From the UHGV virus genome UHGV-0178594: a stretch of DNA of 64,000 bases. One strand, given 5' to 3'. Position numbers and translations under genes: made by a program. A model generated the notes under the pieces. The model saw only the letters and a program-made list of their open reading frames with translations, had not been told where the DNA came from and did not search any database. This document shows, piece by piece, positions 1 to 63,963 of the stretch; position 1 is the stretch's first letter, and every line of letters starts with the position of its first letter. Origin of the DNA: a virus.

Positions 1-600
1 GATATTGGCGCTGCCATCAAATGACACTCCGCCGATTGTGCGTGCCGTCTGAAGTTTCGTTGCGGTTGCAGCATTACCTGTTGTGTTCTGGTTACCGGCA
101 ATGTTCACACCCGGCAGGTTGATATTGGCGCTGCCATCAAATGACACTCCGCCGATTGTGCGTGCCGTCTGAAGTTTCGTTGCGGTTGCAGCATTGCCGG
201 TAGTGCTCTGATTACCTGTTTTATTCACGCCTGGCAGGTCGATATTGGCGCTGCCATCAAATGACACTCCGCCGATTGTGCGTGCCGTCTGAAGTTTCGT
301 TGCGGTTGCAGCATTACCTGTTGTGTTCTGGTTACCGGCAATGTTCACACCCGGCAGGTTGATATTGGCGCTGCCATCAAATGACACTCCGCCGATTGTG
401 CGTGCCGTCTGAAGTTTCGTTGCGGTTGCAGCATTGCCGGTAGTGCTCTGATTACCTGTTTTATTCACGCCTGGCAGGTCGATATTGGCGCTGCCATCAA
501 ATGACACCCCGCCGATTGTGCGTGCCGTCTTGAGCTTTGTCGCAGTATCTGCGTTTCCCGTCAAATTACCTGTAATGCCACCACTAACTGTTACCCCATT
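1..600. repeat. Tandem coding repeats inside tail-fibre gene: 1-240 identical to 241-480, each made of two diverged 120-bp units; diverged copies continue to ~960
   Basis: Direct comparison of sequence lines 1-240 and 241-480 shows identity; unit starts GATATTGGCGCTGCCATCAAATGACAC. Confidence 0.9.
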
Positions 601-2262
601 ACCGATCGACACCAACCCAGTTCTTAAATTTATAGCAAAAGGTCTTAATGGGCCGATGTCACCATTTTCTCCCTCACCTTCATTTGTCGGGATAAGATGC
701 AGAGATTCCTCGGATCTCCTGAAGATAAGGCCAAAGTCCTGGTTAAATATTCGAAGGGCATTTATTGTGCCAATTTTTAGCTGCCCCCCCATTGTGTCGC
801 CAGAACGCTGAACTGCGTTACCAGCTTGAGAAGCAATATCCGTTAAGCCAAGATCTTCAGGGGTCAGAGTAATATCTGCCGACCCATCAAATGCCACACC
901 GTTAATCTTTCTGGCTGTTTTTAATTTCGTCGCAGTATCGGCGTTCCCGGTCAGCGTACCAGTGATCCCCGCGCTGAAAGTCTGGCGTGCACTCCAGGTA
1001 TTAGCTGTGCTCAACAGGGGGAGCTTTTCTCCGCTGGTTCCGAGTTCTCTTAAACCAAGGTATTGGATAACAGCCAGTGTGCTTGTTTTAGCAAGAATAT
1101 CGCGACCGACTGACGTTAAATCAGTCTGGGCTACAGTGTCTGTTCCGGTAAAGTACGGTAATTTATTTGCCCCCGTCGCCAGGCCAGCGAGCGCGGTTAA
1201 GGTTGCGTCGAGAGGCTGCTTACCTGCCAGGGCATTTGTCATTGTAGTCGCAAAGTTCGGGTCATTGCCCAGCGCCGCAGCAAGCTCATTAAGAGTATCA
1301 AGAGCTTCTGGTGATGAGCCGACCAATGCAGAAATAGCGGCACGAACATAAGCGGTTGTTGCAATCTGAGTGTTGTTCGTACCTTGTGACGCCGTAGGAG
1401 CTGTTGGAACCCCCGTAAATGCCGGGCTTAATAACGGCGCTTTAAGAGCTAAAGCATCATTAATCGTCTGGCTAAACTGGGGATCATTGTTTATTGCATC
1501 TGCAATTTTTTTCAGCGTATCCAACGCTGAAGGAGAACCATCAATAAGGGCGGTTATAGCGGCCTGAACAAAGGCAGCGTTTGCGATTTGTGTACTGTTT
1601 GTACCTTGTTCCGGAGTTGGAGATGTAGGGATACCTATAAATTCCGGGCTATCAACCGGAGCTTTAAGTTTATTTAACGTGCTGATAGCAAGGGGGGTTG
1701 CAGCTTTATATTCTTCGTCACTATCCAAAGCACTGGAGAACTCAACACCTACAGCACGATTAGCGCGATATTTAGTGCTAATCATATCTGCGGTAACGGC
1801 TTGAGCATTGTCAGGCACGATCACTCGGCATAGCTCAATCTGGTTAGATGCTATGCCCTCATCAACGAGAGCTATAATTCTCGCAGCACTAATATCCGAT
1901 GAACTATCTACCTGGCTGGTTTTCACTCCATGTTCGTAATTAGCTTCAAGAACGATGATTGTCGTTACACCTGCTTCTACAGGAACAACAACATCACTGA
2001 CTTGCTGCACGGATATCTGACATTTACCCACGTCAACTGAAGCCGCCCCTCTTCCCTCTGTTTTCTCGGATGTAATCCGCACAAACAGGCCATCCCCTGG
2101 CACCGGTTCAAACCCACAGTACACACCGGGCAGAACGATATTTTTCATCTTCCTGTTTAGAGCTTCGGTGCTATACAGCTCAAAGTATTGCATGTCTGCA
2201 ATTAGTGGAGCGGAAATGTCCGAAGATAAGGTGACAATGTTCTTTACTTTATCTGCGCACAT
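1..2262 (-). CDS. Tail fibre protein, partial (C-terminal end runs off the window); ~40-aa phage tail-fibre repeats
   Basis: Minus-strand ATG at 2262-2260; no complete minus ORF is listed here although the reverse translation reads through repeats of the type ..TGNADTATKLKTARTIGGVSFDGSANI..; plus-strand ORFs at 485-1567 are antisense artefacts. Confidence 0.6.
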   Translation of the reverse strand, partial: MCADKVKNIVTLSSDISAPLIADMQYFELYSTEALNRKMKNIVLPGVYCGFEPVPGDGLFVRITSEKTEGRGAASVDVGKCQISVQQVSDVVVPVEAGVTTIIVLEANYEHGVKTSQVDSSSDISAARIIALVDEGIASNQIELCRVIVPDNAQAVTADMISTKYRANRAVGVEFSSALDSDEEYKAATPLAISTLNKLKAPVDSPEFIGIPTSPTPEQGTNSTQIANAAFVQAAITALIDGSPSALDTLKKIADAINNDPQFSQTINDALALKAPLLSPAFTGVPTAPTASQGTNNTQIATTAYVRAAISALVGSSPEALDTLNELAAALGNDPNFATTMTNALAGKQPLDATLTALAGLATGANKLPYFTGTDTVAQTDLTSVGRDILAKTSTLAVIQYLGLRELGTSGEKLPLLSTANTWSARQTFSAGITGTLTGNADTATKLKTARKINGVAFDGSADITLTPEDLGLTDIASQAGNAVQRSGDTMGGQLKIGTINALRIFNQDFGLIFRRSEESLHLIPTNEGEGENGDIGPLRPFAINLRTGLVSIGNGVTVSGGITGNLTGNADTATKLKTARTIGGVSFDGSANIDLPGVNKTGNQSTTGNAATATKLQTARTIGGVSFDGSANINLPGVNIAGNQNTTGNAATATKLQTARTIGGVSFDGSANIDLPGVNKTGNQSTTGNAATATKLQTARTIGGVSFDGSANINLPGVNIAGNQNTTGNAATATKLQTARTIGGVSFDGSANI

Positions 2263-2264
2263 AA

Positions 2265-2711
2265 TTATCCCTCGACCTGTTCAATGGTCATGAGCAAGCT
2301 GTATCGCTTACCTTTGAATAAGGTGTCCTGTTGAGTACAAACAACCCCAAAAGCCTGATCCTCTGCATCTACGAGAACCAGCGTATTGAAATCGTAAGGT
2401 GTATCGTCCGGCATCGTTTCTTGTGGAAAAGCGGCATTAATCGTAATGACACCATCGAGGCTGGAAAGAATGAGATTGGATTCAGCAAAATGCTGTGCAT
2501 CACTTAACTTGAAGTCGAGCGGAATATCAGAAATAGTCCAGCCACCAGCACTATTTACCGTCACAAGATCGGACTTGCACCAATAAGCCTTTGTCATAAC
2601 AAAACGCTCACCTCTGCCGATTGCAGACTCTGCACGGCGAGAGTAGTAGTAAGAAAGGAGTTGCGCCTTGTAAATACTGGAATCGCTTTGGGATTTTAAA
2701 GTTTCAGCCAT
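2265..2711 (-). CDS. Tail-associated protein immediately upstream of tail-fibre gene
   Basis: 148-aa ORF in the baseplate/tail-fibre operon; no recognised motif. Confidence 0.3.
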   Translation of the reverse strand: MAETLKSQSDSSIYKAQLLSYYYSRRAESAIGRGERFVMTKAYWCKSDLVTVNSAGGWTISDIPLDFKLSDAQHFAESNLILSSLDGVITINAAFPQETMPDDTPYDFNTLVLVDAEDQAFGVVCTQQDTLFKGKRYSLLMTIEQVEG

Positions 2712-2827
2712 ACGAACATAGCCCCTTTAACAAGCAATAAATCGAAGGGCAGTATGTTCAGTTTGTGATTTCCAGTGGTTTTTTGTTTTGAGAAATGGCC
2801 CCACCCAGGTTGGCGGGGCCTGGTTTG

Positions 2828-3670
2828 CTAAGGTGCAAAATTATAATCCAGCGCCCAGGCGTCGAGCGGGAGTTCATCGAGATGAAGCACTCTTTCCGTC
2901 GTCCGGTCTGGCCTTCCTGCGAACTGGATGCCGCCTATTTGAATGATCGTATCGCTAATAGATAGCTCATCGACCATCTCTTGCGTCGTGTACACCCCCT
3001 CAATAAAGGACACTTCCGCAGATAAGCAATTCAGGATCTCCGCCATTTCCGGCAATGTTGCGCTTAACTGGAAAGAAACACCATCAAACACGATATGCAA
3101 TGGCAATAGCGGCGCTATAACCGTATCAAAATCAGCAAGTAGCTTCTGTACAGCAACGTCTCGGTCATCGCTATCATAAGCTCGATACAGCTTATTTTGG
3201 TTGACGACAACCAGCCCTCTGGATGTCAGGAAAAACTCACCATATTGTGCCTGAGCGGTCGGTATTTCATTTGCGGTCGCGAAGAATGAACCATAGGGAT
3301 GTTTTTCTGTATCGACAGGCGCATACAAAGGTTCCCATGAGACGGGGATTGTGCCAAATTCACGCCAGAACGTTTGCTCTATCGGCCTTACTGTTCCTTT
3401 GAAGTGCACCTCATCCAGTCGTTGAGCTAATAGCATTGGCCTGCGTGTTTTGTCCGTTTCTGTGATAACAAAGAAACGACCATATTCAGCAATGCGAGTG
3501 TCCATATCCTCCCTTGCCATTGTGAAAAACGATTTACGGTTGCTTATTCGCGTGAGAATAGGTTCAACCGATTCATTCCACACGTCCTGAATCGTATCAA
3601 CAAAGGCGGCCCACAATTTAGAATCCTGTTTAAATTGCGTCAGACGCTCTTTTAGCCAGTTATTCTGCAT
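2828..3670 (-). CDS. Baseplate/tail protein (gpI-like position)
   Basis: 280-aa ORF; gene order W-like, J-like, this ORF, tail fibre resembles P2-type baseplate wedge modules. Confidence 0.3.
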   Translation of the reverse strand: MQNNWLKERLTQFKQDSKLWAAFVDTIQDVWNESVEPILTRISNRKSFFTMAREDMDTRIAEYGRFFVITETDKTRRPMLLAQRLDEVHFKGTVRPIEQTFWREFGTIPVSWEPLYAPVDTEKHPYGSFFATANEIPTAQAQYGEFFLTSRGLVVVNQNKLYRAYDSDDRDVAVQKLLADFDTVIAPLLPLHIVFDGVSFQLSATLPEMAEILNCLSAEVSFIEGVYTTQEMVDELSISDTIIQIGGIQFAGRPDRTTERVLHLDELPLDAWALDYNFAP

Positions 3671-18788: not shown

Positions 18789-18869
18789 GGTTAAACCCTA
18801 AATTCGGGCGCGGCGTGAAGATTCTTTTGACGAGGTGACAATACTCACTTTGTTATTTAGTCAATAGCA

Positions 18870-18945
18870 TTAGAAAAATAATTTTCTTTAACAAAATCGT
18901 CATGGTGTGTTTTAATCTTAATTTTCTAACACATAACATTAGAAC
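18870..18945. promoter_or_regulatory. Two operator-like palindromes (TTAGAAAAATAATTTTCTTTA at 18870; TTCTAACACATAACATTAGAAC at 18924) upstream of the 18948 gene
   Basis: Members of the recurring GTGTTAGAAAAT-type motif family. Confidence 0.4.
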
Positions 18946-27688: not shown

Positions 27689-27720
27689 GTGTTAGAAAAT
27701 AAAACTCAATTATCTAACAC
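27689..27720. promoter_or_regulatory. Operator-like palindrome GTGTTAGAAAAT..TATCTAACAC immediately upstream of rdgC-dmt
   Basis: Member of the recurring motif family; 14 bp from the rdgC start. Confidence 0.45.
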
Positions 27721-31111: not shown

Positions 31112-31414
31112 ATGAACAAAAAGATTAACATAAAGAATTTCAGGGATGAGTGGCTTGATGATTTTTTTGAATTTTCAATACCACACAAAAAGATACCTTC
31201 TGATATTCAGATTACATTGTTGCGGAAGCTGGATATTATCAATGCTGCAACTACTTGGAAGGACTTGAGATCACCACCAGGTAATCGGTATGAGGAATTG
31301 TCAGGGAAGCTAAACGGCTATTCATCAATAAGGGTGAATAAGCAATACAGGTTAATTTTTAAGTGGGTTAACGGAAAGGCCGAGGACTTGTATCTCGACC
31401 CTCACAAATACTAA
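31112..31414 (+). CDS. higB: HigB-family (RelE/ParE superfamily) toxin, 'plasmid maintenance system killer'
   Basis: ..NFRDEWLDDFF..KKIP..LLRKL..LRSPPGNRYEELSGKLNGYSSIRVNKQYRLIF.. matches the remembered HigB pattern; TTGTTATAAT -10-like element upstream. Confidence 0.7.
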   Translation: MNKKINIKNFRDEWLDDFFEFSIPHKKIPSDIQITLLRKLDIINAATTWKDLRSPPGNRYEELSGKLNGYSSIRVNKQYRLIFKWVNGKAEDLYLDPHKY

Positions 31415-31485
31415 AACAAATACCCGGCGGATGGGCCGGGTACTGACCAGAGTCCACTTAATACGCACGCTAGTAAGGGCAAAAA

Positions 31486-31824
31486 ATGAAACAGGCAACC
31501 AGAAAACCGACGACTGTAGGTGATATCCTGCTGTACGAATACCTGGAGCCGTTAGAGCTTAAGATCAACGAGTTAGCAGAAATACTTCATGTTCATCGTA
31601 ACACCGTAAGTGCTCTTGTTAATAACAATCGTAAGCTAACGATGGATATGGCATATCGCCTGGCAAAAGCATTCGATACTTCTGTAGATTTTTGGATTAA
31701 TCTTCAGACCGCAGTAGACCTGTGGGAAGTCGAAAATGATATGCGCGTTCAGGAAGAGTTAAGTCGTATCAATACTGCTGAAAAATTTATTTCTCAGCGG
31801 AACCTGAATAAAAAAGCAGCCTGA
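31486..31824 (+). CDS. higA: HigA-family HTH antitoxin
   Basis: ..TVGDILLYEYLEPLELKINELAEILHVHRNTVSALVNNNRKLTMDMAYRLAKAFDTSVDFWINLQ.. typical HigA HTH. Confidence 0.7.
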   Translation: MKQATRKPTTVGDILLYEYLEPLELKINELAEILHVHRNTVSALVNNNRKLTMDMAYRLAKAFDTSVDFWINLQTAVDLWEVENDMRVQEELSRINTAEKFISQRNLNKKAA

Positions 31825-31843
31825 TATAGTTAAACACATACAA

Positions 31844-31868
31844 AAAGCCCACTTAACAAGTGGGCTTT
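31844..31868 (+). terminator. Hairpin AAAGCCCACTTAACAAGTGGGCTTT after higA (weak U-tract)
   Basis: Perfect 9-bp stem read directly; followed by CCTTTGG. Confidence 0.3.
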
Positions 31869-31880
31869 CCTTTGGAATTA

Positions 31881-32240
31881 ATGAACATTAAACCTATCCG
31901 TACAGAACAAGATTATGAGGCCGCACTGCGTGAAGTCGAACCGATGTTCGATAACGAACCGGAAATGAATACTCCGGAAGGTGATTTCTTTGAGGTTATG
32001 AGTCTTCTCATTGAGGAGTACGAGAAGAAACATTACCCAATTCAGCCACCATCACCTATTGAGGCCATTAAGTTCCGCATGGAACAGCAAGGGCTGACCG
32101 TGAAGGATCTGGAACCGGCTATTGGTAAATCAAATCGTGTTTACGAGGTGCTAAATGGGACACGAAATTTGACGTTACCTATGATTCGTCGTTTACATTC
32201 CCAGTTTGGCATTCCTCTTGAAAGCCTGGTTGGTGTTTGA
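31881..32240 (+). CDS. Orphan YgjM/HigA-type antitoxin-like protein with C-terminal HTH
   Basis: ..IGKSNRVYEVLNGTRNLTLPMIRRLHSQFGIPLESL.. resembles the C-terminal HTH of E. coli HigA (YgjM); no cognate small toxin ORF directly upstream; start set at ATG 31881. Confidence 0.5.
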   Translation: MNIKPIRTEQDYEAALREVEPMFDNEPEMNTPEGDFFEVMSLLIEEYEKKHYPIQPPSPIEAIKFRMEQQGLTVKDLEPAIGKSNRVYEVLNGTRNLTLPMIRRLHSQFGIPLESLVGV

Positions 32241-32289
32241 GTTTGGCGGTCTGGAAGACCGCCTTCACCAAAAATAAAGATAAGAAGGT

Positions 32290-33039
32290 TTGAATTTTTA
32301 TATGAGCAAAGATTCATCATTAGAAAATAAAGATGAAAATGTCACAGTCAGGAACACAATAGAAGAAGCCATAAGAGACAAGTTATTTAATAAGTTGTTT
32401 GCATATGTTGTGGTTTCTTTTTTAGTCGTTAACTGGCAGGATATTATTATATTATTTAAATCAAAGTACGATATATATACAACATTGTCTATAGTATGGG
32501 TTGGTGAGAAATATCACTTTCCTTATGTTGGCCCCATCATTGTATCTCCGTTTGTGGCTCATTTTGTTATGCCATTTATATATGGAACCACTGCGTCAGT
32601 GGTAATGCCTTATATAACAATGTATATATCAAAAGCAACAGGCAGGAACTATGCAAGAATTAGATACATTGACTATGAGTTTGATTTAGAAGAGAGGGCA
32701 AGAATAAAAGAGTTGCAGATCAACTTGAAGCAAAAAGAGAGCAAGCTTTTAAGTCTAGAAAAGCAAACAGAAGATCAATATAAATTATTGTCTGCAATTG
32801 AAGAGAAGAAGAGAGAGACTGAGAGTGCCAGAGTGGCTCTGTATCACGGCATAAAAGTAATTGTCGATGTATATAAAGCAAAAAAGAAAAGAATTTCCAC
32901 CCAAGAAGATTTTGCCGATTTATTAAAAGCAATTGAAGAAAGCGATTTTTATAAAGACACTGGATTGTGGGGTATTAATAAACTAATAGATGACGTAGAG
33001 AAAATATATGAGTCTCAATCGACAACAAAGGACAAGTAA
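32290..33039 (+). CDS. AT-rich membrane protein with N-terminal TM helices and C-terminal coiled coil
   Basis: 249 aa; hydrophobic stretches (FAYVVVSFLVVNW, IVSPFVAHFVMPFIYGTTASVVMPYI) then K/E-rich heptads; local GC visibly lower than its flanks. Confidence 0.4.
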   Translation: MNFYMSKDSSLENKDENVTVRNTIEEAIRDKLFNKLFAYVVVSFLVVNWQDIIILFKSKYDIYTTLSIVWVGEKYHFPYVGPIIVSPFVAHFVMPFIYGTTASVVMPYITMYISKATGRNYARIRYIDYEFDLEERARIKELQINLKQKESKLLSLEKQTEDQYKLLSAIEEKKRETESARVALYHGIKVIVDVYKAKKKRISTQEDFADLLKAIEESDFYKDTGLWGINKLIDDVEKIYESQSTTKDK

Positions 33040-33072
33040 TATAAAAGGCGGGATAACCGCCTTTGTTGTAAA

Positions 33073-34269
33073 TTAAGAACCTTTCTTCACATACTCCATA
33101 AACATTTTTTCAGCTTGCTCAGGTGACGTTCCTGTCATGACCAGCGCATCAATGAACGCTTGCTTCTTCAGTGCGAATTGATCGGCAAGGCGTTGCTGAA
33201 GCTCCTTGTTTTTCTGTTTCTCACGTTGCAAGGCTGCTTCTTTTGCTGCTGCCCGTTTTTTCTGTGCATCGGACAACTTTCTGGCCCTGGTCAGCTGGTC
33301 ACGTAGCTTGTCAATCTTGCCGTTGTCCTTTGCCAGTTTTGTGCTTAAAGCGGCCTGGCGTTTCTGATAGAGCTTCCATTCACGTTTAGCTGCCTCAACA
33401 TTCGTTTTGCTGCTACGGTTTCGATTGAACGCCTTCTCGTCTTCTTTTGTGAAGTGTTTTGTCGTGCGGCGGCGATCGTCACCAAAGGCAACTTGCGTTG
33501 CAGCTTTTTGCAGGGCGCGAGCAATACTCATCTGCCAACTGGCAGACTGTAGTCGTGTCATTGAGTGGATCACATGTTTACAGGCGACGCCTTGCAGCTT
33601 AGGGTTGCGAACTTTTGGATAGGCGTATTCTTTTGGCGGGGCCAGGGCAAAGTTACCTGCAGTGGCGATGTAGCGATACCAGTATTGATGGCGACCGCAG
33701 TCACAATCGAAAGACACTCGCCCGGCACACAGTGATTTTGTGACTTTCAGGGCTGATTTATCGTCTTCTGCGATGTCATCGACCATCTGATCCCATTCTT
33801 CAAAACGTACCCGGACAATGTGGTGCTGGTGAACGGATATATCGGACGCTTCCACGCGGATATTAATCACATTGTGACGAAGAGATACGGGCGTAGCTCT
33901 TTTGATACCAGAACCGTCGTCTACGGCGTTATTTGCTCGCTTAATATCGATAGCCTGGCTGGACGCTACCAGTTGTGCGTATGTAATGCCAGCCGTCTTG
34001 CTGTCGTATTTTTCGCGAGCTTTGCTTCGCAGCTTTTCGAAGCCTTTCAGATCGTCACGCGTAAAGAACGTGCCGCCTTTCTTTTTCCCCAGCTTAAGAA
34101 TGTCTTCGGCTGATTTATTCCTAAGCCTGCCCGGCGTGAGTGTCCTGTTCGCCTGGCGGCGTTTGCGGTTTTGCTCTTTCCTGATGAGTTCAAATACGCG
34201 TGTGAAATCCTTAGAGGACAGGCCGTCAGTGATATATCGCCCGTCCTGATTTTTCAGGAAGTCAGGCAT
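33073..34269 (-). CDS. SWIM zinc-finger protein with basic coiled-coil C-terminus
   Basis: CxC..CxH signature ..FDCDCGRHQYW..GVACKHVIH..; K/R/Q-rich C-terminal third. Confidence 0.45.
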   Translation of the reverse strand: MPDFLKNQDGRYITDGLSSKDFTRVFELIRKEQNRKRRQANRTLTPGRLRNKSAEDILKLGKKKGGTFFTRDDLKGFEKLRSKAREKYDSKTAGITYAQLVASSQAIDIKRANNAVDDGSGIKRATPVSLRHNVINIRVEASDISVHQHHIVRVRFEEWDQMVDDIAEDDKSALKVTKSLCAGRVSFDCDCGRHQYWYRYIATAGNFALAPPKEYAYPKVRNPKLQGVACKHVIHSMTRLQSASWQMSIARALQKAATQVAFGDDRRRTTKHFTKEDEKAFNRNRSSKTNVEAAKREWKLYQKRQAALSTKLAKDNGKIDKLRDQLTRARKLSDAQKKRAAAKEAALQREKQKNKELQQRLADQFALKKQAFIDALVMTGTSPEQAEKMFMEYVKKGS

Positions 34270-34591
34270 TTTCTATCTCCGGTGCCGAGCCAGCGTAATC
34301 GCGAATCTTGTTTCTTAGCCATGCTGCGTCAGGAAGAGTTAACGTTGTCCCTACCGGCATTTCTTCCATTTCTGACTCATGGCCCACCAGCACGCGAAAT
34401 ACCCAGCGCAAATCAGCGTTGCCATAGGCGCGATAGGCCGCCAGGTCTGAGCGATAAACCTCATCAATTTTTATCGTGTACTGGAAATTATCGGAGTGAT
34501 ACTCCGATACCCGCTTGATCATCTCCTGATGGAATAGTGCGCGCAGCACATCGTCTTCAATGCATCGATCGTCGAGCCTGCTGTAACTCAT
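34262..34591 (-). CDS. Hypothetical protein
   Basis: 109-aa ORF overlapping the SWIM gene start. Confidence 0.3.
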   Translation of the reverse strand: MSYSRLDDRCIEDDVLRALFHQEMIKRVSEYHSDNFQYTIKIDEVYRSDLAAYRAYGNADLRWVFRVLVGHESEMEEMPVGTTLTLPDAAWLRNKIRDYAGSAPEIENA

Positions 34592-34787
34592 AACAGTTCC
34601 TCACAGTCATAACCTGGGGGGAACTGTATGCAGGGTGTGAAATGCGAGAAACAGACAGGCCACCAGTTCAGGGGGATGTGGTTCATAAATCCCCTCACTG
34701 GTGACAAGTGACTTTCATTAATCTTTATGCGGGGGCCAGCTTCATTGTTTGCTGGCTGTAGATTAAAAATTAAATAGTGTGAATGAC

Positions 34788-34922
34788 ATGGACGTTATTC
34801 TCGAATTGTTAAAGCTAATTGTTCTGTTTATGAACGCCTCGTTGACCACGCAAATACTGGCGTTAGTATTTTTGTTACTCTTCTACCTGGTATTAAGGGA
34901 GTTAACAAAGCTACTGAGTTGA
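34788..34922 (+). CDS. Small hydrophobic peptide (44 aa) MDVILELLKLIVLFMNASLTTQILALVFLLLFYLVLRELTKLLS
   Basis: ATG at 34788 to TGA 34920-34922, hand-translated; below the ORF-track size cutoff; weak RBS. Confidence 0.2.
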   Translation: MDVILELLKLIVLFMNASLTTQILALVFLLLFYLVLRELTKLLS

Positions 34923-35576
34923 TTAAAGTATCACCGTATCTTCATCAATTACTTGCCCGGCCAGCGATTTTGGTTGGGTATTTCCTGCTTTAGCTTTTTG
35001 ATCGCTGATAATGGACAGGAACGAGGCCATTATCCCTGCTTTGTTTTCTTTCTCTACCGCTCCTGTCATTTGTTTCAGGTAATCCGCGCTGGCAACATTA
35101 TGGTATACCGTTGCATAGCAGCACAGAATCATCAGGATGTGCTCTGGTCGGATATCTTGCCAGTTAACTCGATAAACCTCTTCACCGTTGCCGTTGTATT
35201 CGGTATCGACGATAGAGTCGGGGATCTCAAATGCCCCTTTGTTCTTGTCAGGCAGGGATAGCAGCCTTTGTAGTTTCAGCTCCCGGTATCTCTCCATGCC
35301 GACAATGATCGCTGCTCTGCCGTCGGCGTGCCGTGTTTTTAATGTTACCTGGCTGGCACCTGTACCGGCTGAAATGGTTGGCGTGATTTCGTCAACCAGC
35401 ACCTTAAATTCACTTTTACGCAGCTCGGCAATTGCTGGTGGAATTTTTCGTTTTTGTTCAATAGCAGATGCAGGGAGCGGCTTTACTTTGTCAATTACAA
35501 GCGCGCCGTCTTTCAGGACTGCCGTAGCCATCAGCGGCTTGTTAGTAGAAAGACTGAATATTGCGATCTTTTGCAT
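34923..35576 (-). CDS. Hypothetical protein
   Basis: 217-aa ORF. Confidence 0.35.
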   Translation of the reverse strand: MQKIAIFSLSTNKPLMATAVLKDGALVIDKVKPLPASAIEQKRKIPPAIAELRKSEFKVLVDEITPTISAGTGASQVTLKTRHADGRAAIIVGMERYRELKLQRLLSLPDKNKGAFEIPDSIVDTEYNGNGEEVYRVNWQDIRPEHILMILCCYATVYHNVASADYLKQMTGAVEKENKAGIMASFLSIISDQKAKAGNTQPKSLAGQVIDEDTVIL

Positions 35577-35847
35577 GGCTTTTACTCCACGATAGCAGGC
35601 ACAAAAAAAGGCCGCACATGGCGGCCTGCTTTGGCGTTATGACTCCCTACCGCGCATCGGCTGAAAGTTAGTCGTCAAAAGAACCTTCAACGGGAGCCGT
35701 TTGCGCAATGGATTTTGTCCAGATTGTGATTTCCAGAATAGTGTCAACAATTTTTTTGAATTTTTTATTCGCGCTGAATTTGGCCTAGGTCATTTTGGCG
35801 TAGATGTTTGCTTTTGTAACATAAAACTTCAGTTTTTTTACATGAAG

Positions 35848-36465
35848 GATGGTTTTGTGAAGTTAAGGGTTTTGGGAGCAGTGCTCGCGGTTATATTGGG
35901 GGGAGTTTCTCTTAATGCTGCCTATGCAGGCGCATTACCTGCAAAGTATGAGGCTGGGCTGAAGGTGTTGCGAAACGCCAAAACAAACTATACGCCTGAT
36001 GAAGTTTCAAACTATTGCCAAAAAGAAAATATCCCACTGAAACCTGTAGAGCCATTCTTTAAAAGCAACATTGAGTTCTGTGTATTTGCGTATGCAGCAG
36101 ATGAAACAGGAAAGGCCATACAAAAGACAGGGTATTCCACCAAAGACACAATGTCGGTGTTAAGTAACGGCGTGTTGCAGTTTGAGCTTTATCGTCAGCA
36201 AGGAATGGGAGATCTATTGCAGCCTTTGTATGGTCTAGCATTGGTGCCGGAAGGTCAGCAGTTTCTGATCAAAAAAGGCCTCATGAGGCAGGAAGATGTA
36301 GCTGGTTTCGATGCCATCGTTGCCTATGAAAAACAACTCAAGGAACAGCGCAATAAAAAACCATCTGCCTCATGCGTGCAAAGCAAAACAGCAGAATACA
36401 GCGCAGTGGCTGGGCCTTTAGCCCCACAAATGGCAGAGCAATGGTGTAAACAATACGGGCAATAA
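35848..36465 (+). CDS. Secreted/periplasmic protein with signal peptide
   Basis: From ATG 35848: MKDGFVKLRVLGAVLAVILGGVSLNAAYAG; the ORF track gives a longer 35701 start. Confidence 0.4.
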   Translation, partial: DGFVKLRVLGAVLAVILGGVSLNAAYAGALPAKYEAGLKVLRNAKTNYTPDEVSNYCQKENIPLKPVEPFFKSNIEFCVFAYAADETGKAIQKTGYSTKDTMSVLSNGVLQFELYRQQGMGDLLQPLYGLALVPEGQQFLIKKGLMRQEDVAGFDAIVAYEKQLKEQRNKKPSASCVQSKTAEYSAVAGPLAPQMAEQWCKQYGQ

Positions 36466-36485
36466 GTTACGCAGCGGAGGCAGAA

Positions 36486-36878
36486 TTGAAAAGATTAGCT
36501 ATTGCTTTATTGGCAGCTTTCCCTTTGATCGCTCACGCCGGGAATTTACAAGTGAAGTGCGGTAGGTTTGATATAAAAATCTATCCGAACGCCATATTTC
36601 TGAATGGGAATAAGGTCGATAACGCGCACCGGAAAACTGAATCTGACGTAATGAGCTATGTGTTCCAGGAGTATGCCGAGATGGGGGGAACTTACACGTT
36701 GTACTCGCTGGATGTTCCTTCTCGCGGTGATATGACGTTATCTCATCAATGGCAGAACGCCGATGGCGAAGCTCTGCGCGAGGTTAAAACAGAAAAATGT
36801 GGCACTTTCCATTCTTTTAAAGGGAAAGCGCCCAATGTTAAATCTACGCTTGAAAAACAGCGTGCTGGTGAGCTTTAA
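36486..36878 (+). CDS. Secreted/periplasmic protein with signal peptide
   Basis: MKRLAIALLAAFPLIAHAGN.. classic Sec signal with AHA cleavage site. Confidence 0.45.
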   Translation: MKRLAIALLAAFPLIAHAGNLQVKCGRFDIKIYPNAIFLNGNKVDNAHRKTESDVMSYVFQEYAEMGGTYTLYSLDVPSRGDMTLSHQWQNADGEALREVKTEKCGTFHSFKGKAPNVKSTLEKQRAGEL

Positions 36879-39195: not shown

Positions 39196-39218
39196 TGTTA
39201 GAAAATTAATTTATCAAT
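39196..39218. promoter_or_regulatory. Operator-like element TGTTAGAAAATTAATTTATCAAT overlapping the ref stop codon
   Basis: Nearly identical to the element overlapping the dre stop codon at 58095. Confidence 0.4.
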
Positions 39219-39825: not shown

Positions 39826-39857
39826 GTGTTAGAAAATCAAAATTGATTTTCTAACAC
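39826..39857. promoter_or_regulatory. Near-perfect 32-bp palindrome GTGTTAGAAAATCAAAATTGATTTTCTAACAC directly upstream of ref
   Basis: 15-bp arms are exact reverse complements; 3 bp from the ref start. Confidence 0.55.
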
Positions 39858-44744: not shown

Positions 44745-44775
44745 GTGTTAGAATATTGATTTTAATTTTCTAACA
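44745..44775. promoter_or_regulatory. Operator-like palindrome GTGTTAGAATATTGATTTTAATTTTCTAACA upstream of the 44818 gene
   Basis: Member of the recurring motif family. Confidence 0.45.
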
Positions 44776-58094: not shown

Positions 58095-58117
58095 TGTTAG
58101 AAAATTAATTTATGAAT
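58095..58117. promoter_or_regulatory. Operator-like element TGTTAGAAAATTAATTTATGAAT overlapping the dre stop codon
   Basis: 19 of 23 positions identical, in one run, to the element at 39196. Confidence 0.4.
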
Positions 58118-59403: not shown

Positions 59404-59506
59404 ACATTTTCTAATAGGAACAATCAAAAAAAAGCGGTTTTATCCTTTACTCACCTTGTTATTCAGCATAAATTTGTCACAGGACTTTTATGTTAGAAAA
59501 CTAAAT
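59404..59506. promoter_or_regulatory. Two operator-like sites (ACATTTTCTAATAGG at 59404; ATGTTAGAAAACTAAAT at 59490) upstream of the c1-position gene
   Basis: Half-site variants of the recurring motif. Confidence 0.4.
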
Positions 59507-59518
59507 CGAGTAGGAATA

Positions 59519-63855: not shown

Positions 63856-63934
63856 TTATCCCCCGGATAGAAAAAGACCGAGGGGATGATAATCAGCTTG
63901 TTAATACTGAGAAGACTGTCAAAAACACGATCTA

Positions 63935-63963
63935 TTAGAAAATTAATATCAATTTGCTAACAC
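63935..63963. promoter_or_regulatory. Operator-like site TTAGAAAATTAATATCAATTTGCTAACAC upstream of the pac operon
   Basis: Member of the recurring motif family. Confidence 0.4.

What the first reader, a model, noticed from the sequence alone, without database searches (positions are those of the whole stretch)
33073..35576. SWIM zinc-finger protein operon with a small hydrophobic peptide gene in the adjacent intergenic region
A 398-aa protein with a clear CxC..CxH SWIM signature and a basic coiled-coil tail is co-oriented with two unassigned ORFs. The 330-bp gap at 34592-34922 contains a 44-codon highly hydrophobic ORF on the opposite strand that ends exactly where the 217-aa gene ends. I do not recognise the operon.
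Basis: partly seen in the sequence, partly recalled or inferred. Interest (0 to 1): 0.45.

Follow-up and report, generated by a model that had tools for sequence, protein, structure and literature searches.

The report
Known P1-type tail genes plus a small membrane-protein gene
The "unrecognised operon" is the well-known mat-26-25 virion-assembly gene block of a D6/P1-type phage-plasmid of E. coli; the only modestly new points are that the poorly understood "tail stability" protein gp25 carries a SWIM-like zinc-binding module, and that the small hydrophobic ORF in the gap is very probably a real, lineage-specific gene.

Summary
The interpretation as an unrecognised operon fails. The window is a D6-like, P1-family phage-plasmid (about 100% identical to E. 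coli plasmid NZ_CP104667.1, 85% to phage D6).

- **The three genes.** They are homologues of P1 gene 25 ("tail stability"), gene 26 (baseplate plug, solved in P1 cryo-EM) and mat ("maturation control"). In Leclercia and Yersinia relatives they form one contiguous run, mat-26-25-7-24-6-5.
- **The CxC…CxH motif of gp25.** It is invariant in 35 diverse homologues. Fold searches point to SWIM-type proteins (ZSWIM8, small phage SWIM proteins). Pfam SWIM is not reached, and the 38-residue spacer is atypical.
- **The role of gp25.** It remains unknown. It is absent from both P1 virion atlases and was only weakly detected by mass spectrometry.
- **The 330-bp gap.** It is a D6-lineage insertion and a hotspot, holding HigBA or an IS element in other relatives.
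- **The 44-codon ORF (D6 orf77).** It is kept intact in lineages with dS above 1, with dN/dS 0.03-0.45. It sits behind a perfect P1-type late-promoter box and a conserved 5' hairpin. It is probably a small membrane protein of unknown role.

Overall the locus is ordinary and already annotated, with two small unresolved questions.

The parts
33044..33064 (-). Terminator-like hairpin with T-run directly after the gp25 stop. It lies between the convergent gp25 gene and the + strand 249-aa gene.
   Evidence: 8-bp stem, 5 GC pairs, AAAGGCGGTTATCCCGCCTTT followed by TATATTACTT.
33073..34269 (-). Homologue of P1 gene 25 ('tail stability'; D6 orf74). 398 aa, pI 10. Layout: basic helical N-terminus, central beta plus SWIM-like zinc module, basic coiled-coil C-terminus.
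   Evidence: phrog_1722, E 3e-195; 56.7% identical to P1 gp25, E 1e-112.
33574..33705 (-). Codons 189-232 of gp25: C189-D-C191, a 38-residue insert (…WYRY…PKxRNP…), then C230-K-H232. Putative zinc site.
34262..34591 (-). Homologue of P1 gene 26, the baseplate plug (T4 gp53-like; D6 orf75). Its stop overlaps the gp25 start by 8 nt.
   Evidence: PDB 9ay5_S/9vzk 'Gp26', E 2.4e-18; phrog_1269, E 1e-35; junction sequence ATGCCTGA.
34652..34703 (.). Imperfect ~15-bp inverted repeat forming a long hairpin on either strand. On the - strand it precedes …UGUCUGUUUCUCGC. Possibly an attenuator or terminator between mat and gene 26.
   Evidence: Fold energy about -25 kcal/mol. It is 100% identical in D6-type relatives whose flanking genes are 75-90% identical. 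In L007/L008 it is replaced by higBA plus that cassette's own terminator hairpin.
34704..34724 (+). P1-type late-promoter-like site: ACAAGTGACTT (-22 box), tcat, TAATCT (-10). It points at the small ORF.
   Evidence: P1's annotated LPmat, LP26, LPpro, LPlyz, LPdar, LPs and LPsit define AAGTNACTT-N4-(-10). This is the only perfect match in the window. The 11-mer is invariant in all D6-like variants.
34734..34757 (+). Stem-loop (GGCCAGC…GCUGGCC-like) in the predicted 5' leader of the small ORF.
   Evidence: The CCAGC/GCTGG core is invariant. In L007/L008 the stem is extended by different, mutually complementary bases.
34788..34922 (+). 44-codon gene for a small hydrophobic protein, MDVILELLKLIVLFMNASLTTQILALVFLLLFYLVLRELTKLLS (D6 orf77; phrog_38362). 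It is convergent with mat and abuts it.
   Evidence: dN/dS is 0.03-0.45 with dS up to 1.7. The Shine-Dalgarno GGAG present in D6 is weakened to AGTG in this window.
34923..35576 (-). Homologue of P1 mat ('maturation control'; D6 orf78). 217 aa, no recognisable domain.
   Evidence: phrog_1837, E 4.5e-90; 31% identical to P1 Mat, E 4e-33. No Pfam, NCBIfam, PADLOC or PDB match.
35609..35627 (-). GC-rich hairpin with T7 run immediately upstream of the mat ribosome-binding site (leader terminator or attenuator).
   Evidence: Equivalent hairpin plus T-run sits before mat in Leclercia, Yersinia and P1.
35665..35675 (-). Degenerate counterpart (ACGACTAACTT) of the P1 LPmat -22 box, upstream of the leader hairpin. 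No convincing -10 element.
   Evidence: Compared with P1 LPmat and Leclercia.

Best explanation
This is the mat-26-25 part of the late virion-morphogenesis gene block of a D6-like, P1-family phage-plasmid.

**gp26.** It is the hexameric baseplate 'plug' that ties the hub to the wedges. This is shown for P1.

**gp25.**
- It is translated from a start codon that overlaps the gp26 stop.
- It is a basic three-part protein. Its central module binds zinc through an invariant CxC…CxH set, in a SWIM-like fold with a family-specific 38-residue insert. Zinc binding is inferred, not shown.
- P1 gp25 is missing from both P1 virion reconstructions and gave only two peptides in virion proteomics.
- I therefore infer that it is a transient or low-copy, flexible morphogenesis factor. 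It would use the zinc module and coiled coil to hold a partner (gp26, the baseplate, or the neck, or DNA) during tail completion or head-tail joining. It would not be a stoichiometric building block.

**Mat.** It is the first gene of this block in relatives. Its biochemical role is unknown.

**The 330-bp gap.** It is a D6-lineage insertion of 'moron' type. It holds a real 44-codon gene for a small, probably membrane-inserted protein, read in the opposite direction. A consensus P1-type late-promoter box and a conserved 5' stem-loop lie upstream of the gene, and a long hairpin lies next to the promoter. Late, Lpa-dependent expression is inferred. The protein's function (lysis timing, exclusion, or toxin) is not known.
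For: **Identity of the element.**
- About 100% identity to plasmid NZ_CP104667.1 and 85% to phage D6.
- The D6 annotation names the genes as P1 25, 26 and mat.
- P1 proteins map onto the window by tblastn.

**gp26.** PDB 9ay5_S/9vzk, E 2.4e-18. The baseplate plug role is described in PMC12810830 and bioRxiv 10.1101/2025.07.21.665459.

**gp25.**
- phrog_1722, E 3e-195; 56.7% identical to P1 gp25.
- Ligand residues invariant and kept in the Acinetobacter and Xanthomonas phage homologues.
- AlphaFold model with pLDDT 82.5.
- Foldseek BFVD hits at probability 1.0 include two 'SWIM-type domain-containing' phage proteins.
- No PDB chain matches by sequence, and gp25 is absent from the lists of modelled P1 proteins.
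- Weak LC-MS/MS signal, and HHpred found no role (PMC9024508).
- Adjacency of the 26 and 25 genes is kept in Acinetobacter phage ABMM1.

**Operon ancestry.** In Leclercia and Yersinia relatives mat-26-25-7-24-6-5 is contiguous, with a 4-nt overlap between mat and 26.

**Small ORF.**
- Intact in the window, D6, L003-L005, and in diverged form in L007/L008.
- dN/dS 0.03-0.45.
- Late-promoter box invariant.
- 5' hairpin conserved.
Against: **gp25.**
- Its role is inferred from absence of evidence: it was not modelled, and the MS signal was weak. Flexible or symmetry-breaking structural proteins are also missed by cryo-EM.
- Pfam SWIM is not significant (best E 2.8 in close members, 0.28 in distant ones).

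**Late-promoter reading.**
- No other P1-type box occurs in the 64-kb window, not even upstream of the R-S tail-fibre genes or gene 7. This phage's late activator may recognise something else.
- A position-weight-matrix score as high as this site arises about once per shuffled window.

**Small ORF.**
- Its Shine-Dalgarno sequence is weak in this particular window.
- An IS-disrupted allele exists (L009), so the gene is dispensable for plasmid carriage.
- No promoter for 26-25 was identified.
Confidence: 0.8

Rival explanations
1. gp25 is a genuine structural component present in few copies. Examples would be a DNA-end or neck-associated head-completion protein (functionally like T4 gp2/gp4), or a flexible baseplate appendage. 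It would be invisible in symmetrised maps.
For: - Two peptides were found in purified P1 virions (PMC9024508).
- The protein is very basic with a zinc module, which is compatible with nucleic-acid binding.
- P1 gp7, which shares the 'tail stability' phenotype label, turned out to be the head-side stopper (PMC12810830). That phenotype class therefore includes head-completion defects.
- In ABMM1 and Rb1 the homologue lies just upstream of the capsid gene region.
Against: - There is no density or model in either atlas.
- MS coverage was only 8.4%.
- The conserved coupling is to the baseplate plug gene 26.
- No DNA-binding fold was identified.
Confidence: 0.3
2. The small hydrophobic ORF is the toxin of a type I toxin-antitoxin (post-segregational killing) module. 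Transcripts reading from mat toward gene 26 would act as antisense RNA.
For: - It is a 44-aa hydrophobic peptide on a low-copy plasmid prophage.
- The arrangement is convergent with zero spacing to mat, so - strand readthrough would be fully complementary.
- It has a structured 5' leader.
- The same gap hosts HigBA addiction modules in relatives.
Against: - No match to any Rfam family in the gap.
- No match to Pfam, NCBIfam or PADLOC.
- No dedicated antisense promoter or small RNA was found.
- The upstream promoter looks like a lytic late promoter, not a constitutive one.
- An IS-disrupted allele persists.
- The family is confined to 26 near-identical clusters.
Confidence: 0.15
3. The small ORF is not translated. 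Its conservation would reflect RNA or DNA elements in the mat 3' region or the leader of genes 26-25: terminator, processing site, or promoter.
For: - An ORF of this length is expected by chance in 29% of shuffled gaps.
- The Shine-Dalgarno sequence is weak in this window.
- The most conserved parts of the gap are non-coding (IR 100%, box plus hairpin 98%), whereas the ORF is 88-91% identical.
- RefSeq (PGAP) does not call it in NZ_CP104667.1.
Against: - The frame is open at exactly 44 codons in lineages with dS about 1-1.7, and dN/dS is consistently below 0.5.
- The N-terminal half has diverged in DNA beyond blastn detection, yet keeps the same residue pattern: LIxLL…FxxASLTxQ.
- D6-type alleles have a good GGAG at 8 nt from the ATG.
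Confidence: 0.15
4. One reading: a novel, unassigned SWIM zinc-finger operon with its own peptide toxin, unrelated to virion or replication functions.
For: - No Pfam, NCBIfam or PADLOC domain is found in gp25, gp26 or Mat.
- The biochemical roles of gp25 and Mat are still unknown.
Against: - There is direct homology to named P1 and D6 morphogenesis genes.
- The genes are embedded in the 26-25-7-24-6-5 neck and baseplate block.
Confidence: 0.02

Closest known systems
Phage P1 genes 26-25 (operon 26-25-7-24-6-5) and D6 orf75/orf74
   Same: - Sequence homology: gp25 is 56.7% identical to P1 and 96% to D6; gp26 matches the solved P1 Gp26 chain.
- Same gene order, 26 then 25.
- Same basic coiled-coil C-terminus, which is also noted in the P1 annotation.
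   Different: - Here, and in D6, gene 25 is followed by a terminator and an inserted + strand cassette (HigBA-like pair, HTH protein, 249-aa protein) before gene 7.
- There is no C1 operator or LP26-type late promoter in front of gene 26, unlike P1.
P1 Mat ('maturation control', gene next to ref)
   Same: 31% identity over residues 40-242 of annotated P1 Mat. The conserved motifs are FKVLVDE, DGR…ERY and NW…RPEH…LCC. The leader hairpin plus T-run before the start codon is shared.
   Different: - In P1, mat lies at a separate locus between ref and res, with LPmat and Omat upstream.
- Here it lies directly upstream of 26-25, as in Leclercia and Yersinia relatives, but separated from them by the inserted small gene.
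- The LPmat box is degenerate here.
SWIM zinc finger (Pfam PF04434; ZSWIM8; small phage 'SWIM-type domain-containing' proteins)
   Same: - CxC…CxH ligand set, with the C-K-H-(V/I) helix.
   Different: - There are 38 residues between CxC and CxH, with a conserved WYRY…PKxRNP insert.
- The Pfam model matches only the CxH half, at E 0.3-2.8.
- The module is embedded in a ~400-aa basic coiled-coil protein.
P1 Lpa-dependent late promoters (LPs, LPsit, LPmat, and others)
   Same: An exact 9-bp palindromic -22 box with the usual preceding AC, a 4-nt spacer, and a -10 element with A2 and T6.
   Different: It drives a tiny accessory gene that runs against the flanking morphogenesis genes. It is the only such box in 64 kb of this element.
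Phage morons and type I toxin genes (e.g. hok, ldr, tisB)
   Same: A short hydrophobic-protein gene with its own promoter and flanking hairpins, inserted between conserved late genes. It is absent from sister lineages.
   Different: - It is oriented against the surrounding operon.
- It has no sequence or Rfam similarity to known type I systems.
- No antitoxin RNA was identified.

Membership tests
P1 gp25 'tail stability' protein family (phrog_1722) | Full-length sequence homology to P1 gp25 | tested here: met
   phrog_1722 E 3.3e-195 over residues 2-396. tblastn to P1 gene 25 gives 56.7% identity, E 1e-112. The family has 645 representative clusters.
P1 gp25 'tail stability' protein family (phrog_1722) | Gene lies immediately downstream of the gene 26 homologue | tested here: met
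   8-nt overlap here. The same adjacency holds in P1, D6, Leclercia and Yersinia and Acinetobacter phage ABMM1. It does not hold in Xanthomonas phage Rb1.
P1 gp25 'tail stability' protein family (phrog_1722) | Loss of function gives unstable or defective tails | not testable with these tools
   Known only from P1 amber genetics, as cited in PMC9024508.
P1 gp26 / T4 gp53-like baseplate plug | Sequence homology to the solved P1 Gp26 chain | tested here: met
   PDB 9ay5_S/9vzk, E 2.4e-18, residues 3-100. phrog_1269 E 1e-35.
P1 Mat | Sequence homology to P1 Mat | tested here: met
   tblastn 31% identity, E 3.7e-33. phrog_1837 E 4.5e-90. Sources name the cluster 'maturation control protein'.
SWIM zinc finger (Pfam PF04434) | CxCxnCxH ligand pattern, conserved | tested here: met
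   C189, C191, C230 and H232 are invariant in 35 sequences. They are kept in ABMM1 and Rb1.
SWIM zinc finger (Pfam PF04434) | Profile match above the Pfam gathering score (19.6 bits) | tested here: not met
   No hit at E<=0.01. Only 3 of 35 members match, best E 2.8. In 4 of 10 distant members the score is 9.7-11.2 bits and mostly covers only the CxH half.
SWIM zinc finger (Pfam PF04434) | Short spacer between CxC and CxH (about 6-25 residues in the original description; recalled from memory) | tested here: not met
   The spacer is 38 residues and carries a conserved insert.
SWIM zinc finger (Pfam PF04434) | Fold similarity to proteins with an accepted SWIM domain | tested here: inconclusive
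SWIM zinc finger (Pfam PF04434) | Binds zinc | not testable with these tools
   Needs metal analysis of purified protein.
P1-type Lpa-dependent late promoter | 9-bp palindromic -22 box AAGTNACTT, 4-nt spacer, -10 hexamer with A2 and T6 | tested here: met
   34706-34724 reads AAGTGACTT tcat TAATCT, compared with eight annotated P1 late promoters. The box is invariant in all D6-like variants.
P1-type Lpa-dependent late promoter | The same box recurs in front of the element's other late operons | tested here: not met
   No other exact or high-scoring site in 64 kb, including upstream of R-S and gene 7.
P1-type Lpa-dependent late promoter | Transcription depends on Lpa and is late | not testable with these tools
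   Needs transcript mapping or reporter assays.
Type I toxin-antitoxin system | Small hydrophobic toxin peptide | tested here: met
   44 aa, GRAVY 1.64, with hydrophobic segment ~22-36.
Type I toxin-antitoxin system | Similarity to a described toxin or antitoxin-RNA family | tested here: not met
   Rfam found nothing relevant in 34400-35100. Pfam, NCBIfam and PADLOC gave no hit.
Type I toxin-antitoxin system | Dedicated antisense RNA with its own promoter; toxicity on expression | not tested
   No such promoter was recognised. Toxicity needs an experiment.
Moron (lineage-specific accessory gene inserted in a late operon) | Absent from sister lineages in which the flanking genes are contiguous | tested here: met
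   mat and 26 overlap by 4 nt in Leclercia and Yersinia relatives. The peptide family is limited to 26 D6-like clusters.
Moron (lineage-specific accessory gene inserted in a late operon) | Own promoter and terminator | tested here: inconclusive
   Promoter-like box and hairpins are present. No clear terminator lies downstream of the ORF, apart from a weak one inside mat at 34961-34977.

The most novel reading that the evidence does not exclude
gp25 founds a large (several hundred clusters), so far undescribed family of phage morphogenesis proteins. In them, a SWIM-derived zinc module with a conserved insert, plus a basic coiled coil, acts as a low-copy DNA-end or neck and baseplate assembly factor coupled to the gp53-like plug. 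Separately, the D6 lineage has acquired a late-promoter-driven 44-aa membrane peptide, convergent with mat, that tunes lysis, exclusion, or expression of genes 26-25 by transcriptional collision.
Probability: 0.2. Interest if true: 0.5.

Novelty: already known. Interest (0 to 1): 0.22.

Why it matters
For genome annotation the result is mostly corrective. The locus is the standard P1/D6 neck and baseplate gene block, not a new system.

Two points could interest phage structural biologists.

1. **P1 gp25.** It is one of the last essential-region morphogenesis proteins of a classic model phage without a place in the virion atlas. A conserved zinc-ligand set and a SWIM-like fold give a concrete handle: ligand mutants, metal analysis, and partner search with gp26 and gp7.
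2. **The gap between mat and gene 26.** It is an insertion hotspot that carries either a conserved small membrane-protein gene, HigBA, or an IS element. It is a small example of how accessory genes colonise late operons of phage-plasmids.

Neither point changes current concepts.

Tried and rejected
**Domain and family searches that found nothing.**
- Pfam, NCBIfam and PADLOC scans of gp25, gp26, Mat and the peptide gave no significant domain.
- phmmer and profile searches of gp25 and Mat against PDB sequences gave only coiled-coil noise or nothing.
- Foldseek of the gp25 model against the PDB found nothing.
- The afdb50 library was not available.
- Rfam on the gap gave only a 13-bit chance hit.

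**Searches limited by the tools.**
- tblastn of the peptide against plasmids was crippled by the low-complexity filter and matched only its first 18 residues. I replaced it with DNA alignment of relatives.
- The P1 genome paper (PMC523184, an id recalled from memory) and the D6 genome paper are not held in the library.
- I found no paper describing a SWIM finger in P1 gp25. That search was limited.

**Promoter questions left open.**
- A sigma-70 scan of the region gave no more sites than chance.
- I tried to define this element's late-promoter consensus with a matrix built from eight P1 late promoters. It found no other convincing site, so the late-promoter reading for the small ORF stays unconfirmed.
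- I looked for a promoter for genes 26-25 in the 60 nt between the hairpin and gene 26 and found none I would defend.

**Ideas tested and dropped.**
- That the protein after gp25 in ABMM1 (phrog_4597) is a gp7 homologue. BLASTP shows no similarity.
- That the promoter box is specifically homologous to P1 LPmat. It simply equals the general late-promoter consensus, and a separate degenerate LPmat counterpart lies upstream of mat.


Full report
**What the window is.**

The 5-kb stretch around the finding is about 100% identical to E. coli plasmid NZ_CP104667.1 (91.7 kb, non-mobilizable). It is 85% identical to phage D6 and matches 128 P1/D6-type plasmid prophages of Escherichia, Salmonella and Shigella. 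The D6 record annotates the same genes as "similar to P1 gene 25" (orf74), "gene 26" (orf75), a 44-aa orf77, and "similar to P1 gene mat" (orf78). P1 proteins map onto the window as expected. On the - strand the window carries S, R, 16, bplA, pmgA, sit, tub and pmgC. It then carries 25 (56.7% identical to P1), 26 (42.7%) and mat (30.9%), followed by icd and ref.

**Check of the observation.**

- The gp26 stop overlaps the gp25 start by 8 nt. The small + strand ORF's TGA (34920-34922) touches the reverse-strand stop of mat (34923-34925).
- gp25 has only four cysteines. C189, C191, C230 and H232 are invariant in 35 homologues down to 45% identity.
- The protein has pI 10.07 and predicted long C-terminal helices.
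- The small ORF is strongly hydrophobic. An ORF of that length is not unusual for a 330-bp gap, since 29% of shuffles contain one. Its reality has to be judged by comparison with relatives.

**gp26.**

The 109-aa protein matches the solved chain "Gp26" of PDB 9ay5/9vzk at E 2.4e-18. Two independent P1 cryo-EM studies place six copies of gp26 between hub and wedges. One calls it the "plug". Both these studies and an earlier HHpred analysis relate it to T4 gp53 (bioRxiv 10.1101/2025.07.21.665459; PMC12810830; PMC9024508). This gene is therefore fully assigned.

**gp25.**

*Family and what is known about its role.*
- It belongs to phrog_1722, "tail protein" (E 3e-195).
- The family is large: 645 clusters at 50% identity with E<=1e-3.
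- For P1, gp25 is known only as "tail stability" from amber genetics. Two peptides (8.4% coverage) were seen in virions, and HHpred gave no role. The authors left open whether it is structural or a cofactor (PMC9024508).
- It is not among the proteins modelled in either P1 atlas, and no PDB chain matches it by sequence.

*Structure and the SWIM question.*
- My AlphaFold model (35-sequence alignment, pLDDT 82.5, pTM 0.72) shows three parts. There is a basic helical N-terminus, then a central beta-sheet followed by CxC, helix, long loop and CxH-helix, and finally long basic helices.
- Foldseek against the PDB found nothing.
- Foldseek against predicted viral structures gave probability-1.0 hits to small phage proteins. 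Two of them are named SWIM-type domain-containing proteins (Achromobacter phage Motura, Burkholderia phage BcepSauron).
- Pfam's SWIM model is never significant. Only 3 of 35 close members match, with best E 2.8. In 4 of 10 distant members it reaches 9.7-11.2 bits against a cutoff of 19.6, and mostly over the CxH half only.
- The 38-residue spacer with its conserved WYRY…PKxRNP insert explains that failure.
- My reading is a SWIM-derived zinc module, supported at fold level but not a Pfam-level member.

*Genomic context in distant phages.*
- Distant homologues in Acinetobacter phage ABMM1 and Xanthomonas phage Rb1 keep the ligands and the insert. The Rb1 gene is annotated there as "MvaT".
- In ABMM1 the gene again directly follows a gp26-like gene (phrog_1269). 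In both phages it precedes a phrog_4597 protein and the capsid gene region.

*Mechanism.*
The mechanism is inferred, not shown. Coupled synthesis with the plug, absence from the maps and a weak MS signal point to a transient or low-copy factor. It would use the zinc module and coiled coil to hold a partner during tail completion or head-tail joining. A low-copy structural role remains a live rival, for example one that is DNA-end or neck associated. The reason is that P1 gp7, which carries the same "tail stability" label, turned out to be the head-side stopper.

**Mat.**

- The 217-aa protein is phrog_1837, of unknown function. It is 31% identical to P1 Mat.
- It has no hit in Pfam, NCBIfam, PADLOC or PDB, whether searched singly or as a profile.
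- The conserved motifs are FKVLVDE, DGR…ERY and NW…RPEH…LCC.
- In Leclercia and Yersinia relatives the order is ref, mat, 26, 25, 7, 24, 6, 5, with mat and 26 overlapping by 4 nt. P1 itself has mat at a separate locus.
- A GC-rich hairpin plus T-run sits immediately before the mat ribosome-binding site. It is present here (35627-35609), in Leclercia, in Yersinia and in P1. A degenerate counterpart of the P1 LPmat box lies upstream of it at 35665-35675.

**The gap and the small ORF.**

*The gap is an insertion and a hotspot.*
- It exists only in the D6 lineage.
- Some relatives carry a HigB/HigA pair there (L007, L008). One carries an IS element that cuts the small ORF (L009).

*Evidence that the ORF is a gene.*
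- It is intact in the window, D6, L003, L004 and L005.
- In the HigBA-type plasmids a 44-codon ORF persists. Its N-terminal half has diverged beyond blastn detection, but the residue pattern is kept: MNTFNKLIDLLNKFISASLTKQVSTSVFLLLFYLVLRELTKLLM.
- Pairwise dN/dS is 0.03-0.45, with dS up to 1.7.
- One record (L006) has frameshifts, but that record looks error-prone throughout.
- The protein family comprises only 26 clusters, all D6-like.
- I conclude it is very probably a real gene for a small membrane protein. It would have one hydrophobic segment at roughly residues 22-36, after an amphipathic N-terminus.

*Upstream elements.*
- I derived the P1 late-promoter architecture from eight annotated P1 promoters: (A/G)AC-AAGTNACTT, 4 nt, then a -10 element.
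- The sequence 34704-34724, ACAAGTGACTT-tcat-TAATCT, fits it perfectly. It is the only perfect match in the window. It is invariant across all variants while its surroundings diverge.
- A stem-loop follows at 34734-34757. Its core is invariant, and its upper stem is rebuilt with different complementary bases in the HigBA-type plasmids.
- This suggests late, Lpa-type transcription toward the small ORF and into the 3' end of mat.

*Caveats.*
- No second P1-type box exists in 64 kb, not even before R-S or gene 7.
- A matrix score this high is expected about once per shuffled window.
- The Shine-Dalgarno GGAG of the D6-type alleles is weakened to AGTG in this window.

*The long hairpin.*
- An imperfect inverted repeat lies between the box and gene 26 at 34652-34703, with a fold energy of about -25 kcal/mol.
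- It is 100% conserved where the flanking genes are only 75-90% identical.
- In the HigBA variants it is replaced by that cassette's own terminator, placed in front of the same …TTTCTCGCATTTCAC tract.
- It may attenuate transcription from mat into 26.
- I could not identify a promoter for 26-25.

**Comparison and verdict.**

The locus is a known, annotated part of P1/D6-type phage-plasmids. What is left is modest:
- gp25's SWIM-like zinc module, for which I found no description in the searchable literature;
- a lineage-specific small membrane-protein gene of unknown role.

I rate interest at about 0.2. The most novel reading still allowed by the evidence is a new family of zinc-module morphogenesis factors, plus a late-expressed convergent membrane peptide with a regulatory or lysis role. 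I put that at about 0.2 probability.

Noticed in passing
window 18868-18931, 27690-27719, 39196-39212, 39827-39856, 44746-44775, 58095-58111, 59491-59507, 63933-63962: A 17-mer, AAATTAATTTTCTAACA, occurs 13 times at up to 3 mismatches (0.39 expected). Several copies form overlapping, oppositely oriented pairs. It looks like this element's counterpart of the asymmetric P1 C1-repressor operators. None lies in 33000-35700, unlike P1, which has Omat and O26 (P1 features).
   Followed up: partly
window 31112-33039 (+ strand): A + strand cassette is inserted between gene 25 and gene 7. It holds a HigB-like toxin (31112-31414) and a HigA-like antitoxin (31486-31824). It also holds a 126-aa HTH protein (31860-32240) that matches the N-terminal 119 positions of PADLOC PD-Lambda-2_B (E 2.5e-43). 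The last gene encodes a 249-aa protein of unknown function (32290-33039; phrog_8191, weak DUF6947).
   Followed up: partly
window 35609-35627(-); L013 1283-1316 (P1); L015 2985-3010; L016 2985-3010: A conserved GC-rich hairpin plus T-run sits directly upstream of the mat ribosome-binding site in P1, D6-like, Leclercia and Yersinia elements. In P1 it lies inside the annotated mat ORF, so the annotated P1 Mat start (MDPFS…) is probably 37 codons too early. The likely start is MDKKIC.
   Followed up: partly
L007 1655-2226 and L008 1655-2226 (HigA/HigB); L009 2902-4110 (transposase): The gap between gene 26 and mat is an insertion hotspot. Some D6-like plasmids carry a HigBA pair there, and one carries an IS element that interrupts the small ORF. 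The truncated and fused peptide clusters P0144-P0146 may be such disrupted alleles.
   Followed up: yes
L010 5800-6879 (Xanthomonas phage Rb1) and L011 4579-5709 (Acinetobacter phage ABMM1): These distant gp25 homologues (phrog_4315) are annotated as 'transcriptional regulator MvaT' and 'tail protein'. The MvaT label is probably an artefact of the basic coiled coil. Both genes are followed by a phrog_4597 gene and the capsid gene region.
   Followed up: partly
L016 2650-2700 (Yersinia ruckeri relative): A tandem run of about eight copies of TTTGTACC lies in the 450-bp spacer between ref and mat. It might be iteron-like or a binding array. I did not examine it.
   Followed up: no
L006 (NZ_MK356558.1, Salmonella pSa1423-160k) 1-3371: This record shows many single-base indels relative to all other D6-like plasmids, and its morphogenesis genes are annotated only as fragments. 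This is probably sequencing error, so its frameshifted small ORF should not be counted as gene loss.
   Followed up: partly
window 35701-36878 (+ strand): Two + strand genes diverge from mat. One encodes 254 aa (phrog_12786), with a likely shorter true start giving a signal-peptide-like N-terminus. The other encodes 130 aa (phrog_13864) with a signal-peptide-like start, MKRLAIALLAAFPLIAHA. D6 has a simB-like gene at this position instead.
   Followed up: no
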